Part shown: in pieces, positions 47,632 to 51,519 of the stretch
Layout: every line of letters begins with the position of its first letter
Position numbering within the stretch: position 1 is the stretch's first letter
NCBI GenBank assembly: GCA_044450765.1
Contig: JBIOJK010000003.1
Span: 19,856-83,855, forward strand
DNA from: Myxococcota bacterium
GTDB lineage: Bacteria > Myxococcota_A > UBA9160 > SZUA-336
Reading direction: 5' to 3'
DNA length: 64,000 bases
Notes under the pieces: generated by a model
Told to the model about the DNA's origin: nothing
Databases searched by the model: none
The model's input: the letters and a program-made list of their open reading frames with translations, nothing else
Program-made: the position numbers and the translations under genes

Positions 47632-48330
47632 CTAGAGCTTGAGCCACGCGAAGCCGCTGCGCAGCGCTTCGCGGCCGCCCTTCTCGAGGATCTCGCCGTG
47701 CGCGACGGTGACTCGCTCGAACTCCCAGGCGAGAATCCGGTCGAGCGACGCGCGCGCGCTTCGCCGGTCCTTCAGAACCGCGAAGCGGAAGATGCGCGAG
47801 GGGCCGAAGCGGCCGAAGGCGCCGTTCACGCGCATGAACAGCCGAGTCGGCGCGCTGGCCGACTCGCGCACGTTGAAGCACAGGTCGAGACACAGCAGCG
47901 TGCGGCTCGCCCGGTGCAGGAACACGACCTCGTTCAAGCTCGGAGCGCCGCGCACGAGCAGCTGATCCAGGTCGGCCGCCCAAAGGTCCGGCGCCCGATC
48001 GGCGAGCACCTCGTCCACGCGCACGTCGCCGAGCTTCTCGCGCAGGCCGGGCGCGCCGAAGACGCGCGCGTGCGGGTACGCGGCGATGTTCTCGCGCAGG
48101 AACATGTGATGCAGCAGATTCGGCGCGATCAGAGCGCGCACGGGCCCGAGTGAGTCGATCGCGCGGCGCACATCGTCGTCCAGCGGCCCCGGGGTGTGCA
48201 CGGCGACACCTCCGCCCGAGAGCCGGACCGCACAGCAGCGCGTCCCGAGCTCGAGGCCGCCCGGCAGGCGCAGCGGGTGGTCGATCGCGATCAGGTCGGG
48301 GTGCAGGCGGTGGACGTGGGTCACTGCCAC
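47632..48330 (-). CDS. DUF4336-like protein (metallo-beta-lactamase-like fold); start uncertain
   Basis: C-terminal roughly 230 aa of the 47632..48486 ORF (IAIDHPLRLPGGLELGTR...APNLLHHMF...). Confidence 0.55.
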   Translation of the reverse strand: MAVTHVHRLHPDLIAIDHPLRLPGGLELGTRCCAVRLSGGGVAVHTPGPLDDDVRRAIDSLGPVRALIAPNLLHHMFLRENIAAYPHARVFGAPGLREKLGDVRVDEVLADRAPDLWAADLDQLLVRGAPSLNEVVFLHRASRTLLCLDLCFNVRESASAPTRLFMRVNGAFGRFGPSRIFRFAVLKDRRSARASLDRILAWEFERVTVAHGEILEKGGREALRSGFAWLKL

Positions 48331-48361
48331 GGCTCTTGAAGCTAAGCGTAGAATCGGCGGC

Positions 48362-50389
48362 GTGGAAGAGCGGCAGATCGAGCTCGGATCGGGCGCGACG
48401 CGCATTCGCATCGAGGGCGACGGCCGGCCGCTCGTCTGGACGCACGGCTTCACGAGCTCGATCGAGGCGGAGGATGCGGCCGGCATGAGCGCGCTCTGGC
48501 GCGGCGTGCTCGACCTGCAGCTCGTGCGCTACGACGCGCGCGGTCACGGCCGCTCCGCGCCGGGCCGCGACGAGCCCGCGCAATCCTGGTCGGCGCTCGG
48601 CGCGGACTTGCTCGAGCTCGTGACTGCGCTCGGCCTCGACCGGCCGATCGCCGGCGGCGCCTCGATGGGCACCGCGACCTCGCTGCATGCGGCCGTGCGG
48701 AACCCGGGCGCGTTCAGCGGCCTGCTGCTGGTCCTGCCGCCGACGGCCTGGGAGACGCGCAAGCCGCAAGCCGATCTGTATCGCGGCGGCGCGGCGCTGG
48801 TCGAGGCGCGCGGCGTCGAGGGATACATCGCCGCTGCGCGCGAGGCCTTCCGCACGCGGCCGATGCCCGGCTTCAGCGAAGAGATGCAGGAGCGCGTGAT
48901 CGCGGAGCTGCGCGCGACGAGCGCCGCGGATCTCGTGCGCAATCTCCGCGGCGCGGCGGCGAGTGACTTGCCCGATCCCGCGCGGCTTCGCGAGCTCGAC
49001 GTCCCGGCGCTCGCGATCGCCACGCGCGGCGATCCCGGTCACCCGCTTTCGACCGCGGAGCGGCTGCTCGAGCTCCTGCCGCGCGCCGAACTGGTCGTGC
49101 TCGACGATCTCACTCAGCTCTCGTCGGCGCGCGGCGAGCTGGAGCGCTTCGCGGCTCGCACCGGCGTGCGCGCCCGCGGGCCGAATGTCTCGCCGATCGA
49201 TCTCTACTCGCCCGACCGCTTCGCGAACGGCGCGCCCTACGCGGACTTCGCGCGCCTGCGCCGCGAGCGCCCGGTGCACTGGCAGCCGACGCCGGACGGC
49301 GGCGGATACTGGGCCGTGACGAAGCACGCCGACGTCGCGGCGATCTCGCGCGACCCGGCGACTTACTCGTCTGCGCAGGGCTTCGTCGTGATCGAGCCGC
49401 TCTCGGAGGCGCAGCTGGCGATGATGCGCTTCACCTTACTCGGCATGGACCCGCCCGAGCACGCTCGGCTGCGCCGGCTGTTCCAGAGCGCCTTCACGCC
49501 GCGCATGGTCGCGGCGCTCGAGCCGCGCATTCGCGAGATCTCGCGCGGCATCATGGCGCGCGGAGCAGCGCGCGGCGAAGTCGAGTTCGTCGAGGACATG
49601 GCGGGTGACTTGCCGATGCAAGTGATCGGCGAGCTGCTCGGCGTGCCCGAGGGCGAGCGTGCGCGCCTGCGCGCTTGGGCGGCGCAGCTGACCGGCTCGC
49701 AGGATTCCGATCTCAATCCGGGCGGCGCGGAGGCCGCGCCCGCGGCGTCGATCGAGATGGCCATGTACGCGATCGGGCTCGCGCGGGCGCGCCGCGGCGC
49801 GCCCGGATCCGACCTCACGACCGTCGCCGTGAACGCTGAAGTGGACGGCCACGCGATGACCGACGCGGAGTTCGGCGGCTTCTTCGTCCAGCTCGCGACC
49901 GCCGGCAACGACACGACGCGCAACTTGTTGTCCTCGGGGACGCGCCTCCTGCTCGAGCATCCGGACGCGCTCGCGTCACTGCGCGCGGACGAGTCACTCG
50001 TTCCGAGCGCGGTCGAGGAGATGCTGCGCGTCGAGAGCCCGCTCCACTACTTCCGGCGGACCGCGACGCGGGACGCGAGCCTGCGCGGCCAGGCGATCCG
50101 CAGCGGCGACCGCGTCGTCCTGTACTACGGCGCGGCAAACCGCGACGAAGAGGTCTTTCGCGAGCCCGACCGCTTCGACGTGCGGCGCTCGCCGAACCCG
50201 CATCTGTCGTTCGGCTTCGGCGAGCACTTCTGTCTGGGAGCCGCGCTCGCGCGCCTGGAGGCGCGCGTGTTCTTCGAGGAGCTGCTGCGCGCGTTCCCGC
50301 GCATCGAGCTGGCCGGCGAGCCGCGGCACCAGCGCTCGAATCTGAACAACGCGCTGAAGTCGCTGCCCGTCCGGCTCTACGCGAACTAG
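48362..50389 (+). CDS. Apparent fusion of an alpha/beta-hydrolase (N-terminal, about 270 aa) and a cytochrome P450 (C-terminal, about 400 aa)
   Basis: Continuous frame. The hydrolase has an HG box (WTHGF), a nucleophile elbow (GASMG) and Asp/His (RGDPGHP). The P450 has EMLR and FGFGEHFCLGAALA. Confidence 0.65.
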   Translation: MEERQIELGSGATRIRIEGDGRPLVWTHGFTSSIEAEDAAGMSALWRGVLDLQLVRYDARGHGRSAPGRDEPAQSWSALGADLLELVTALGLDRPIAGGASMGTATSLHAAVRNPGAFSGLLLVLPPTAWETRKPQADLYRGGAALVEARGVEGYIAAAREAFRTRPMPGFSEEMQERVIAELRATSAADLVRNLRGAAASDLPDPARLRELDVPALAIATRGDPGHPLSTAERLLELLPRAELVVLDDLTQLSSARGELERFAARTGVRARGPNVSPIDLYSPDRFANGAPYADFARLRRERPVHWQPTPDGGGYWAVTKHADVAAISRDPATYSSAQGFVVIEPLSEAQLAMMRFTLLGMDPPEHARLRRLFQSAFTPRMVAALEPRIREISRGIMARGAARGEVEFVEDMAGDLPMQVIGELLGVPEGERARLRAWAAQLTGSQDSDLNPGGAEAAPAASIEMAMYAIGLARARRGAPGSDLTTVAVNAEVDGHAMTDAEFGGFFVQLATAGNDTTRNLLSSGTRLLLEHPDALASLRADESLVPSAVEEMLRVESPLHYFRRTATRDASLRGQAIRSGDRVVLYYGAANRDEEVFREPDRFDVRRSPNPHLSFGFGEHFCLGAALARLEARVFFEELLRAFPRIELAGEPRHQRSNLNNALKSLPVRLYAN

Positions 50390-51519
50390 CTCGAGTCCGC
50401 CGGCTCCGCCTCGTCGGCGACGCCGTAGTCGGCGTAGAAGCCGCGCTTCCACTCGAGAAAGCGGCCGGCCAGGATCGCGCCTCGCATCTCGCCCATCAGC
50501 CGCTGGTAGAAGCGCACGTTGTGAATCGCGCCGAGAATCGCCGCGAGGATCTCGTTCGCGGCGTACAGGTGGTTCACGTACGCGCGCGTGAAGGTCTTGC
50601 ACGCGTAGCAGTCACAGCTCGTGTCGATCGGATAGAGATCCCGCCGGTAGCGGCGGTGGTTCATGCGGATCCGCCCGCGCCGCGTGAAGAGAGTCGCGGA
50701 GCGCGCATAGCGCGTGGGGATCACGCAGTCGAACATGTCCATGCCGCGCTCGACGGACTCGATCAGGTCTTCGGGCAGGCCGACGCCCATCAGGTAGCGC
50801 GGCTTGTGCTCCGGCAGCAGCGGCGCGGTGAAGCCGACGATGCGCTTCAGCTCTTCGATCCCCTCGCCGACCGAGACGCCGCCGATCGCGTAGCCCGGCG
50901 CCTCGACCTTCGCGATCTCGCGCGCGCACAGCTCGCGCAAGTCGAGATACACGGAGCCCTGCACGATCGGGAACAGCGCCTGCTCCGACCCGGCGTGCGC
51001 GCGGCCGCAGCGCTCGAGCCAGCGCAGCGAGTTCTCGACCCCGCGCCGCGCCAGCTCAGGAGTCGCCGGGAAGGGTGTGCACTCGTCGAAGGCCATGATG
51101 ATGTCCGCGCCGAGCGCGTGCTGAATCTCGATCGAGCGCTCCGGCGTGAGCTCCACCTCGGAGCCGTCGACCTCGTTCTTGAAGCGGACGCCCTCGGGCG
51201 TGATCTGCTTGTGCTTCAAGCTGAAGACCTGAAAGCCGCCCGAGTCAGTCAGGATCGGGCCGTCCCAGGCCATGAACGCGTGCAGGCCGCCGGCGCGCTT
51301 CACGAGCTCGGGTCCGGGCCGCAGCAGCAGGTGATACGTGTTTGCGAGCAGGATCCGCGCGCCCGTCGCGCGAACCTGCTCGGGAGTCATCGCGCGAACC
51401 GCGGCGTGGGTGCCGACCGGCATGAAGACCGGTGTGTCGACCGCGCCGTGCGGCGTGTCGAGCCGGCCGGCACGCGCGGCACAGCCCGGGTCGGTCGCCT
51501 CGAGGGCGAAGCGAATCAC
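50386..51519 (-). CDS. tgt: Queuine tRNA-ribosyltransferase
   Basis: TGT motifs (ANTYHL, DSGGFQV) and the zinc site (CDCYACKTFTRAYVNHL). The GTG overlaps the purM stop. Confidence 0.9.
   Translation of the reverse strand: MIRFALEATDPGCAARAGRLDTPHGAVDTPVFMPVGTHAAVRAMTPEQVRATGARILLANTYHLLLRPGPELVKRAGGLHAFMAWDGPILTDSGGFQVFSLKHKQITPEGVRFKNEVDGSEVELTPERSIEIQHALGADIIMAFDECTPFPATPELARRGVENSLRWLERCGRAHAGSEQALFPIVQGSVYLDLRELCAREIAKVEAPGYAIGGVSVGEGIEELKRIVGFTAPLLPEHKPRYLMGVGLPEDLIESVERGMDMFDCVIPTRYARSATLFTRRGRIRMNHRRYRRDLYPIDTSCDCYACKTFTRAYVNHLYAANEILAAILGAIHNVRFYQRLMGEMRGAILAGRFLEWKRGFYADYGVADEAEPADSS

What the first reader, a model, noticed from the sequence alone, without database searches (positions are those of the whole stretch)
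48362..50389. In-frame alpha/beta-hydrolase-cytochrome P450 fusion next to a DUF4336 gene
A complete alpha/beta-hydrolase domain runs straight into a complete P450 through a linker of about 45 aa with no stop. The hydrolase has an HG oxyanion motif, a GASMG nucleophile and Asp/His. The P450 starts at its usual N-terminus (PIDLYSPDRF...) and carries EMLR and FGFGEHFCLGAALA. There is no RBS-like sequence before the only internal GTG. A hydrolase-P450 single polypeptide could couple ester or epoxide hydrolysis to oxidation of a hydrophobic substrate. The divergently placed DUF4336 (metallo-beta-lactamase-like) gene may belong to the same tailoring set.
Basis: partly seen in the sequence, partly recalled or inferred. 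Interest (0 to 1): 0.65.

Follow-up and report, generated by a model that had tools for sequence, protein, structure and literature searches.

The report
Natural hydrolase–cytochrome P450 fusion protein
One 675-residue gene in an uncultured soil Myxococcota genome really does join an esterase-like alpha/beta-hydrolase to a CYP125-like cytochrome P450; relatives carry the same two parts as separate genes, or only one of them, at the same locus, so this is a young, lineage-restricted fusion of unknown substrate and only modestly novel.

Summary
Window 48362-50389(+) is one uninterrupted ORF of 675 aa. It has an N-terminal alpha/beta-hydrolase (aa 1-266), a 12-aa disordered linker (aa 267-278, not about 45 aa) and a complete class-I P450 (aa 279-675).

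It is not an assembly artefact:
- NCBI already annotates the identical 675-aa protein (MFI5314308.1, Myxococcota MAG).
- 15 further 90%-identity clusters from independent assemblies have the same architecture, with in-frame linkers of different lengths.

The locus mfd-rplC-rlmE-DUF4336(-)|X(+)|tgt(-)-purM(-) occurs in four states in relatives:
- hydrolase only (ancestral);
- hydrolase plus P450 as two genes with an ATGA overlap;
- the fusion;
- P450 only.

Fused forms are not monophyletic, so the junction has been remodelled more than once. Both domains are under purifying selection.

The P450 belongs to the CYP125/124/126/268 clan of terminal lipid and steroid side-chain hydroxylases and has no fused redox partner. 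The hydrolase belongs to an uncharacterised family. That family lacks the canonical His after strand beta8 and has an invariant DPGHP loop after beta7 instead.

Most likely this is a bifunctional enzyme that de-esterifies and then omega-oxidises a lipophilic substrate. The coupling is inferred, not shown. There is no biosynthetic cluster around it. It is a new variant of known P450/non-redox fusions such as fungal MpaDE.

The parts
48362..50389 (+). Complete fusion ORF: 675 aa plus a TAG stop. Identical to NCBI MFI5314308.1.
48362..49159 (+). Alpha/beta-hydrolase domain, aa 1-266. It has eight strands and a helical cap (aa 130-210).
48443..48448 (+). H28-G29 oxyanion-hole motif.
   Evidence: H28 is invariant in 148/148 family members.
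48656..48670 (+). GASMG nucleophile elbow. Ser101 is at 48662-48664.
   Evidence: S101 is present in 147/148 members.
49031..49045 (+). DPGHP loop after strand beta7. It holds Asp224 and His227, the proposed acid and base.
   Evidence: D224 is present in 147/148 members; H227 and P228 in 148/148. There is no conserved His after beta8.
49160..49195 (+). Linker TGVRARGPNVSP, aa 267-278. It is disordered and varies in length and sequence among fused homologues.
   Evidence: pLDDT is below 50 at residues 271-276. Alignment A1. Coordinates.
49196..50386 (+). Cytochrome P450 domain, aa 279-675, of the CYP125/124/126/268 clan.
49901..49918 (+). I-helix AGNDTT, the acid-alcohol pair D517-T518.
   Evidence: conserved in A1
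50015..50029 (+). K-helix ExxR motif (EEMLR).
50210..50239 (+). Haem-binding loop FGFGEHFCLG. Cys624 is at 50231-50233.
47632..48330 (-). DUF4336 gene, 232 aa from GTG 48330. It is a constant divergent neighbour in every relative of this clade.
   Evidence: Pfam. tblastn gives 71-79% identity in L001-L015. Gene tables.
48331..48361 (.). 31-bp divergent spacer between the two start codons. It contains TAGAAT at 48349-48354.
   Evidence: Sequence. No sigma-70 consensus hit. Function untested.
50386..51492 (-). tgt (queuine tRNA-ribosyltransferase), convergent with the fusion. Its stop overlaps the fusion's stop by 4 nt. It marks the downstream edge of the variable slot.
   Evidence: Pfam 511 bits; synteny

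Best explanation
This is a real, single, cytoplasmic 675-aa polypeptide made by a recent, lineage-restricted gene fusion in uncultured soil Myxococcota.

**How it arose.**
1. The ancestral locus carried only a DUF4336 gene and, divergently, a small serine alpha/beta-hydrolase (shown by synteny).
2. A CYP125-clan P450 was then placed immediately downstream of the hydrolase, with a 4-nt ATGA stop/start overlap that couples translation (shown in L001-L004).
3. Small indels in that junction removed the stop and put the two genes in one frame. This created a 0-25-residue flexible tether, 12 aa in the window (shown by comparison).

**How it most likely works (inferred).**
- The N-terminal domain is an active serine hydrolase. 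Ser101 is the nucleophile, H28-G29 form the oxyanion hole, and Asp224 and His227 of the invariant DPGHP loop replace the missing canonical His.
- It removes an acyl or ester group from a lipophilic substrate.
- The C-terminal class-I P450 receives electrons from a separately encoded ferredoxin and ferredoxin reductase. It hydroxylates a terminal or sub-terminal methyl of the aliphatic, isoprenoid or steroid-type chain, as CYP124, CYP125 and CYP142 do.
- The two steps could also run in the opposite order, with oxidation first and then hydrolysis or lactone handling, as in MpaDE.
- The fusion secures 1:1 co-production and proximity rather than forming a rigid channel.
For: **One ORF, correctly read.** There is no stop, GC3 is uniform, and the NCBI call is identical.

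**Conserved architecture.** 15 further fused clusters of 660-692 aa share 73-83% identity. Their linkers differ in length but all are in frame.

**Shared locus.** Every fused locus fetched (L008-L011, L014, L015) has the window's gene order.

**Split form.** At the same locus, the stop TGA overlaps the ATG, with GGAG 7 nt upstream.

**Ancestral state.** Hydrolase-only loci occur in more distant clade members.

**Selection and catalytic residues.** dN/dS is 0.27-0.41 for the hydrolase and 0.21 for the P450. All catalytic and haem motifs are retained in every fused copy.

**Structure prediction.** The AF2 model has mean pLDDT 93, and only the linker is disordered.

**P450 clan.** E = 6e-127 and 53% identity to CYP125MRCA. 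43% identity to CYP268A2. E about 1e-80 to CYP126, CYP125A1 and CYP124.

**Precedent.** Fungal MpaDE is a natural P450-hydrolase fusion that performs hydroxylation and then lactonisation (PMC11934065, PMC4708987).
Against: - No substrate, product or activity is known for either half.
- Either partner can be absent in sister lineages. L005-L007 have the hydrolase only, and the hydrolase tree nests them among fused forms. L013 has the P450 only.
- The association is confined to one narrow clade. Only one 50%-identity cluster in 1.84 billion representatives has it, and only 2 of 185,579 species genomes. Distant homologues of either half are never neighbours.
- pTM falls from 0.94 (hydrolase alone) to 0.71 (full length). 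This suggests there is no fixed inter-domain interface.
- The canonical catalytic His is missing, so hydrolytic activity itself is unproven.
- No redox partner lies nearby (no ferredoxin motif anywhere in the window).
Confidence: 0.55

Rival explanations
1. The fusion is a tolerated accident. Two adjacent, translationally coupled genes were joined by a small indel. The domains work independently on unrelated substrates, and the fusion brings no catalytic benefit.
For: - Each partner occurs alone at the same locus in sister lineages.
- The fused state is not monophyletic: 0/200 bootstraps recover it, while P0009 (fused) groups with the split and P450-only forms in 196/200. The junction therefore flips easily.
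- The linker is short, variable and disordered.
- Distant homologues of the two halves are not neighbours.
- The drop in pTM gives no sign of a fixed interface.
Against: - The P450 was inserted precisely behind the hydrolase with an ATGA overlap, which is typical of co-functioning operon partners.
- The fused state persists across 16 diverged sequences (73-83% identity) with both halves under purifying selection.
Confidence: 0.3
2. The hydrolase domain is a non-catalytic pseudo-enzyme. It could be a substrate-binding, solubility or docking module for the P450, because it lacks the canonical His after beta8.
For: - The window protein has no His between residue 228 and the P450. The Pfam and PDB alignments stop just before the GH motif.
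Against: - S101 (147/148), D224 (147/148), H227 (148/148) and H28 (148/148) are essentially invariant across the whole family, including stand-alone members down to 30% identity. That pattern fits a catalytic site, not a decayed one.
- The GxSxG elbow and the HG motif are intact.
Confidence: 0.1
3. The continuous ORF is a sequencing or assembly artefact, or the cell mainly makes a separate P450 from an internal start (GTG codon 269 at 49166).
For: - Some relatives in long-read MAGs carry frameshifted copies (P0027, P0151, L015).
- An in-frame GTG lies 10 codons before the P450 N-terminus.
- Many Myxococcota genes may lack Shine-Dalgarno sites (own knowledge).
Against: - The same architecture occurs in independent short-read and long-read assemblies from four data sources, with different in-frame linker lengths.
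- No Shine-Dalgarno-like sequence precedes GTG 49166, whereas the split form has GGAG 7 nt before its ATG.
- The shortest fused linker (P0006...RLVTRTTDLYSPERY) leaves no room for an internal start.
Confidence: 0.05

Closest known systems
MpaDE of Penicillium (mycophenolic acid pathway), a natural P450-hydrolase fusion
   Same: One polypeptide joins a P450 to a hydrolase that is not a redox partner. The two domains act consecutively on one small molecule, by hydroxylation and then lactonisation (PMC11934065, PMC4708987).
   Different: - It is fungal and bound to the endoplasmic reticulum.
- The domain order is reversed, with the P450 at the N-terminus.
- Its hydrolase is, to my knowledge, of the metallo-beta-lactamase type rather than the alpha/beta-hydrolase fold.
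- It is embedded in a biosynthetic gene cluster.
- There is no sequence relationship, so it is an analogue and not a family member.
CYP125, CYP124, CYP142, CYP126 and CYP268 of Actinobacteria (terminal hydroxylases of steroid side chains and methyl-branched lipids)
   Same: - These are the best solved-structure matches to the P450 half: CYP125MRCA E = 6e-127 with 53% identity, CYP268A2 with 43% identity, and CYP126, CYP125A1 and CYP124 at E about 1e-80.
- The length is the same, and so are the N-terminal 'DLxxPDxY...' start, the I-helix acid-alcohol pair, the ExxR motif and the Cys loop.
- They use the same class-I layout, with no fused reductase.
   Different: - All characterised members are stand-alone proteins inside lipid or steroid catabolic contexts. 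Here the P450 is fused to a hydrolase, sits in a housekeeping neighbourhood and is found in Myxococcota.
- Identity to natural CYP125A1 was not computed.
- The substrate is unknown.
Self-sufficient P450 fusions (CYP102/BM3, CYP116B, the CYP51-ferredoxin fusion and XplA)
   Same: They are naturally fused bacterial P450s. A single ORF gives co-expression of the P450 with a functional partner.
   Different: Their partners are electron-transfer domains. Here Pfam finds no FMN, FAD or Fe-S domain, so this protein still needs separate redox partners.
Small cap-bearing carboxyl- and aryl-esterases, perhydrolases and PcaD-like enol-lactonases (for example PDB 4uhc, 5h3h, 7dq9, 3om8, 1a8s)
   Same: - The HG oxyanion motif, the GxSxG elbow and the Asp after beta7 are shared.
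   Different: - Identity is only 16-24%, and no NCBIfam model reaches its cut-off (PcaD scores 61 bits against 256).
- The canonical His after beta8 is absent. An invariant His sits three residues after the Asp, in a DPGHP loop, where the PDB relatives aligned (7dq9, 6eb3/8v16) have an aliphatic residue.

Membership tests
Cytochrome P450 superfamily (PF00067) | A profile match above the curated threshold. | tested here: met
   82.1 bits against a cut-off of 22.8.
Cytochrome P450 superfamily (PF00067) | A haem-thiolate loop FxxGxHxCxG, the K-helix ExxR motif and the I-helix acid-alcohol pair. | tested here: met
   FGFGEHFCLG with Cys624, EEMLR, and AGNDTT.
CYP125 family (steroid C26-monooxygenases) | At least 40% identity to named family members, following the P450 nomenclature convention (own knowledge). 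| tested here: inconclusive
   Identity is 53% to the reconstructed ancestor CYP125MRCA, but also 43% to CYP268A2 from a different family. Natural CYP125A1, CYP126 and CYP124 all score about E 1e-80. Identity to a natural CYP125 was not computed, so only clan-level placement is safe.
CYP125 family (steroid C26-monooxygenases) | Oxidation of the cholesterol or cholest-4-en-3-one side chain, and a steroid-catabolic gene context. | tested here: not met
   The context is housekeeping (mfd, rplC, rlmE, tgt, purM). The activity itself cannot be tested with these tools.
Alpha/beta-hydrolase fold (PF00561) | A profile match above threshold and the eight-stranded fold. | tested here: met
   [not shown]
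Alpha/beta-hydrolase fold (PF00561) | A nucleophile elbow GxSxG after beta5 and an HG oxyanion motif after beta3. | tested here: met
   GASMG with S101 in 147/148 members, and H28 in 148/148.
Alpha/beta-hydrolase fold (PF00561) | The canonical order of the catalytic triad: the acid after beta7 and the His after beta8. | tested here: not met
   The Asp224 after beta7 is present. No conserved His follows beta8, where strand 242-247 runs directly into helix 250-270. The invariant His227 lies in the beta7 loop.
3-oxoadipate enol-lactonase PcaD, and BioH-type pimeloyl-ACP methyl ester esterase (the labels JGI gives to homologues) | A match to the equivalog model above its trusted cut-off. | tested here: not met
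   TIGR02427 scores 61.3 bits against a cut-off of 255.85. No BioH model was hit.
Natural P450/non-redox enzyme fusions (MpaDE-like) | Both catalytic domains lie in one conserved ORF. | tested here: met
Natural P450/non-redox enzyme fusions (MpaDE-like) | The two domains catalyse consecutive steps on one substrate. | not testable with these tools
   This needs enzymology. Only indirect support is available, from the ATGA coupling in the split forms.
Self-sufficient (redox-partner-fused) P450s | A fused flavodoxin, reductase or ferredoxin domain. | tested here: not met
   Only Abhydrolase_1, Hydrolase_4 and p450 were found in the 675 aa.
DUF4336 (PF14234), neighbouring gene | A profile match above the gathering score. 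| tested here: met
   39.6 bits against a cut-off of 28.5. No functional literature was found: three incidental mentions only.

The most novel reading that the evidence does not exclude
The N-terminal domain may not be a substrate esterase at all. It could be a perhydrolase-type alpha/beta-hydrolase with a relocated catalytic His in the DPGHP loop. Its structural neighbours include cofactor-free haloperoxidases and aryl-esterase perhydrolases.

In this reading it makes a peracid from H2O2 and a carboxylic acid right next to the haem domain. The peracid drives the P450 through the peroxide/peracid shunt. The fusion would then be a redox-partner-independent, 'chemically self-sufficient' P450.

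A weaker form of the same reading is much more likely, at about 0.5. It says that this hydrolase family uses a catalytic-triad topology I have not seen described, with Asp and His both on the beta7 loop.
Probability: 0.04. Interest if true: 0.85.

Novelty: new variant of a known kind. Interest (0 to 1): 0.4.

Why it matters
- Natural fusions are Rosetta-stone hints to function. This one links an uncharacterised, widespread alpha/beta-hydrolase family to a CYP125-clan lipid or steroid hydroxylase, and gives a concrete bifunctional enzyme to express.
- Four states survive side by side in close relatives at the same locus: hydrolase only, coupled genes, fusion and P450 only. This is an unusually clean natural series for studying how enzyme fusions arise, revert and are selected.
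- The hydrolase family's invariant DPGHP loop, together with the missing canonical His, would be of interest to enzymologists if it proves to be a working triad.
- A bacterial, soluble esterase-P450 tandem could serve as a one-protein cascade catalyst.
- No long-standing question hinges on any of this.

Tried and rejected
- **Artefact or frameshift.** Rejected on the basis of independent fused homologues and the identical NCBI protein.
- **Redox partner nearby.** A regex scan of all six frames of the window for ferredoxin Cys motifs found nothing. None appears in the syntenic gene tables.
- **Biosynthetic or catabolic cluster.** The neighbours are housekeeping genes.
- **Reverse-order or independent hydrolase-P450 fusions within this hydrolase family.** An exhaustive HMMER search of 1.84 billion representatives gave only one fused cluster (P0006). 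The other long hits are enoyl-CoA hydratase-hydrolase, FrhB-hydrolase or tandem hydrolases, not P450s.
- **Co-location of the two families outside the clade.** No hydrolase of this family and no DUF4336 lies within 6 kb of 78 more distant P450 relatives; one weak match to another alpha/beta-hydrolase (29% identity) sits near L020. No P450 or DUF4336 lies next to distant hydrolase homologues.
- **Promoter and terminator scan.** Uninformative.
- **Literature.** Six full-text searches found no bacterial alpha/beta-hydrolase-P450 fusion and no functional work on DUF4336. Only MpaDE emerged as an analogue.
- **Foldseek against AFDB50.** It would have shown other two-domain proteins, but the library was unavailable.
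- **Model coordinates.** They are not exposed, so the Ser101-His227 distance could not be measured.
- **First bootstrap attempt.** It timed out and was redone with a faster distance method.
Full report
**1. The observation**

The window is about 72% G+C. ORF 48194..50389(+) has no stop. From GTG 48362 it encodes 675 aa beginning MEERQIEL, which is the N-terminus shared by all homologues. This exact sequence is in NCBI as MFI5314308.1, 'MAG: cytochrome P450 [Myxococcota bacterium]', on a 90,376-bp contig.

Pfam finds Abhydrolase_1 and Hydrolase_4 in aa 26-248, plus p450. Both exceed their gathering scores, and no other domain is found.

- H28-G29
- G99-A-S101-M-G103
- G223-D-P-G-H227-P
- AGNDTT (aa 514-519)
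- EEMLR (aa 552-556)
- FGFGEHFCLG (aa 617-626, Cys624)

Third-position G+C in the ORF frame is 0.90 in the hydrolase, 0.88 in the linker and 0.92 in the P450. The other two frames give 0.50-0.78. One frame is therefore coding throughout.

**2. It is not an artefact, and the architecture is conserved**

A search of 5.8 billion proteins returned 15 other clusters of 660-692 aa. They cover 97-100% of the query at 73-83% identity and carry both Pfam domains. They come from JGI, ENA, NCBI and Logan assemblies.

In their alignment both domains are colinear. The segment between them varies in sequence and in length, and is 13 residues shorter in P0005, P0006 and P0008, yet it is always in frame.

AlphaFold2 with a 147-sequence alignment gives mean pLDDT 93.1. 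The hydrolase's C-terminal helix runs to about residue 270, residues 271-276 have pLDDT below 50, and the P450 fold follows.

Stand-alone hydrolases end opposite residue about 266-268. The stand-alone P450 P0016 starts at the residue aligned to I279 (MIDLYSPDRY). The real linker is therefore aa 267-278, or 12 residues (nt 49160-49195), not about 45.

**3. The locus in relatives: four states**

The window's gene order was confirmed by Pfam:

mfd(-) / rplC / rlmE / DUF4336(-) / fusion(+) / tgt(-) / purM(-) / DUF1232(-) / 2-hydroxyacid dehydrogenase

The same framework recurs in relatives, with different content between DUF4336 and tgt:

| State | Loci | Content of the slot |
|---|---|---|
| a. 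Fusion | L008/L009 (P0006), L010/L011/L014 (P0009), L015 | One fused ORF |
| b. Two genes | L001-L004 | Hydrolase P0124 (272 aa) and P450 P0016 (399 aa), in different frames, overlapping by 4 nt |
| c. Hydrolase only | L005-L007 (GCA_035498875.1); the more distant L096 and L097 | No P450 |
| d. P450 only | L013 (P0017) | P450 directly divergent from DUF4336 |

In state (b) the junction reads ...CCGCGATGATCGAC..., so the TGA stop lies inside the ATG-A of the P450 start, and GGAG sits 7 nt upstream.

No remnants of the missing partner were detected by tblastn in states (c) or (d).

The next-closest P450s (P0019-P0025, 70-76% identity) are stand-alone. The one checked, P0023, sits elsewhere in its genome in the order recA-P450-SDR-glyoxalase.

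**4. Polarity and dynamics**

The more distant hydrolase-only loci share the framework, so hydrolase-only is the ancestral state and the P450 arrived later.

On a P450-domain neighbour-joining tree with 200 bootstraps:
- all locus-resident P450s form one clade in 200/200 replicates;
- P0009 (fused) groups with P0016/P0018 (P0016 split; P0018 context not checked) and P0017 (P450 only) in 196/200;
- the fused proteins are monophyletic in 0/200.

On the hydrolase tree, the hydrolase-only pair P0122/P0123 nests inside the fused forms, and the split pair P0124/P0125 lies just outside them. This tree has no support values.

So either the fusion arose at least twice, or it arose once and was undone by fission and by loss of either half. 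Either way the junction is evolutionarily labile.

The shortest fused junction...ARLVTRTTDLYSPERY in L008, is essentially the split form with its stop/start overlap deleted.

Pairwise Nei-Gojobori dN/dS against L008, L010, L001 and L005 is 0.27-0.41 for the hydrolase and 0.21 for the P450. The values do not depend on whether the comparison partner is fused, split or solitary. Both halves are maintained.

**5. How restricted it is**

An exhaustive phmmer search used the hydrolase half against 1.84 billion 50%-identity representatives. It found 4,205 relatives with E of 1e-3 or better. Among the best 150, exactly one is a hydrolase-P450 protein (P0006).

Other long hits are different fusions: enoyl-CoA hydratase-hydrolase (P0249), FrhB-hydrolase (P0279) and tandem hydrolases.

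Among 185,579 species-representative genomes, only two give full-length matches. Both are uncultured Myxococcota or 'delta proteobacterium' MAGs. The other 78 loci are P450-only matches from Binatia, Acidimicrobiia and other taxa at 65% identity or less (L016 at 72% is the exception). None has a hydrolase of this family or a DUF4336 within 6 kb.

Distant hydrolase homologues (L094, L095) have neither a P450 nor a DUF4336 beside them.

**6. The P450 half**

The best solved-structure match is the reconstructed ancestor CYP125MRCA, with E = 6e-127 and 53% identity over 394 aligned positions. Next come CYP268A2 (43% identity), CYP126, CYP125A1 and CYP124, all at E about 1e-80 to 1e-84.

This places it in the clan of terminal hydroxylases of steroid side chains and methyl-branched lipids. 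The data do not assign it to one named family.

It has the normal O2-activating I-helix pair (D517-T518) and no fused redox domain. It should therefore need a free ferredoxin and reductase. None is encoded nearby, and a ferredoxin-motif scan of the window found nothing.

**7. The hydrolase half**

The eight strands are canonical. However, strand beta8 (242-247) runs straight into the last helix (250-270). The window protein has no His between residue 228 and the P450.

The Pfam match ends at profile position 234 of 245, and the PDB alignments end at '...VVLDD'. That is exactly where the GH motif of ordinary family members begins.

Conservation across 148 family members, down to 30% identity:

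| Residue | Members with it |
|---|---|
| H28 | 148 |
| S101 | 147 |
| D224 | 147 |
| H227 | 148 |
| P228 | 148 |

No position after beta8 is conserved. The PDB relatives aligned (7dq9 and 6eb3/8v16) have an aliphatic residue where H227 sits.

I infer that this family uses Ser101 with Asp224 and His227 from a single DPGHP loop after beta7. This is an inference from conservation and topology. All fused copies keep these residues.

**8. Mechanism**

*Shown:*
- one conserved ORF;
- intact catalytic motifs in both halves;
- purifying selection on both halves;
- derivation from a translationally coupled gene pair;
- a flexible tether. pTM is 0.71 for the whole protein against 0.94 for the hydrolase alone, which suggests no fixed interface.

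*Inferred:*
- The two activities serve one pathway. The most likely one is de-esterification of a lipophilic ester, followed or preceded by omega-oxidation of its hydrophobic chain.
- The benefit of the fusion is stoichiometric co-production and proximity.

The main rival is a tolerated neutral fusion of neighbouring genes. It draws strength from the dispensability of either partner in sister lineages and from the youth and narrowness of the association.

An epoxide-hydrolase role is unlikely, because the nucleophile is Ser rather than Asp.

**9. Comparison with what is known**

P450s fused to non-redox enzymes are known. The closest functional analogue found in the literature is fungal MpaDE, in which a P450 hydroxylates and a fused hydrolase lactonises. 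It has the opposite domain order, is membrane-bound, is unrelated in sequence and sits in a biosynthetic cluster.

Six full-text searches found no description of a bacterial alpha/beta-hydrolase-P450 fusion and no functional study of DUF4336. Database annotators label the protein only as 'cytochrome P450' or 'cytochrome P450/pimeloyl-ACP methyl ester carboxylesterase'.

**10. Verdict**

- The fusion is real and conserved, but it is young, narrow and reversible.
- There is no tailoring cluster.
- The link to DUF4336 cannot be distinguished from synteny.
- Catalytic coupling is plausible but unproven.

The finding is a new variant of a known kind and is of moderate interest (0.4). Two side points are worth a specialist's attention: the four-state natural series at one locus, and the relocated catalytic His of the hydrolase family.

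Noticed in passing
window 49031-49045 (D224-P-G-H227-P) and 49085-49110 (strand beta8): The whole hydrolase family (148 members, mostly stand-alone proteins) lacks the canonical catalytic His after beta8. It has an invariant DPGHP loop after beta7 instead. This may be an undescribed triad topology in an uncharacterised alpha/beta-hydrolase family.
   Followed up: partly
window 48331-48361: Only 31 bp separate the divergent start codons of DUF4336 (GTG 48330, minus strand) and the fusion (GTG 48362). Relatives have 14-30 bp. A TAGAAT box ends 7 nt before the fusion's GTG, which hints at a leaderless transcript and at promoters buried in the neighbouring coding sequences. The consensus promoter scan found nothing.
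   Followed up: partly
window 50386-50389: The fusion's TAG stop and the stop of the convergent tgt gene overlap by 4 nt. Relatives show 16-30-nt convergent overlaps (L001, L005).
   Followed up: no
L008/L009 7989-8645: In the P0006 lineage a SAM-dependent methyltransferase gene overlaps the fusion's stop by 4 nt. It may be a third operon member, and it is absent from the window.
   Followed up: no
L096 3708-5819; L097 1811-5819: In the more distant hydrolase-only relatives, DUF4336 heads an operon with an Alginate_exp porin-like gene and an Lnb_N lipoprotein gene. In L096 a MarR regulator is translationally coupled upstream of the hydrolase. These may be clues to an envelope- or lipid-related role for the DUF4336/hydrolase pair.
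   Followed up: no
L013 2465-4385: In this relative the hydrolase is gone. The P450 (P0017, 407 aa, with an N-terminal extension MRASYNGGTLTG) abuts DUF4336, and the two start regions overlap by 2 nt.
   Followed up: partly
proteins P0249 and P0279: The same hydrolase family also occurs fused to the C-terminus of an enoyl-CoA hydratase (P0249). It is likewise fused to the C-terminus of an FrhB/FdhB-like F420-dehydrogenase subunit (P0279). The enoyl-CoA hydratase fusion hints at acyl-CoA or thioester substrates.
   Followed up: no
P0027, P0151, L015 (MFD long-read MAGs): Copies of the fusion or the hydrolase have apparent frameshifts. The P0027 reading frame changes after PPEHLRFR, and the P0151 C-terminus is scrambled. 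These are probably long-read indel errors rather than pseudogenes.
   Followed up: no
L012 6001-8597: The nearest out-of-locus paralogue clade of the P450 (P0023, 72% identity) sits downstream of recA. A short-chain dehydrogenase and a glyoxalase-fold gene follow it. This may be the original context from which the locus copy derives.
   Followed up: no
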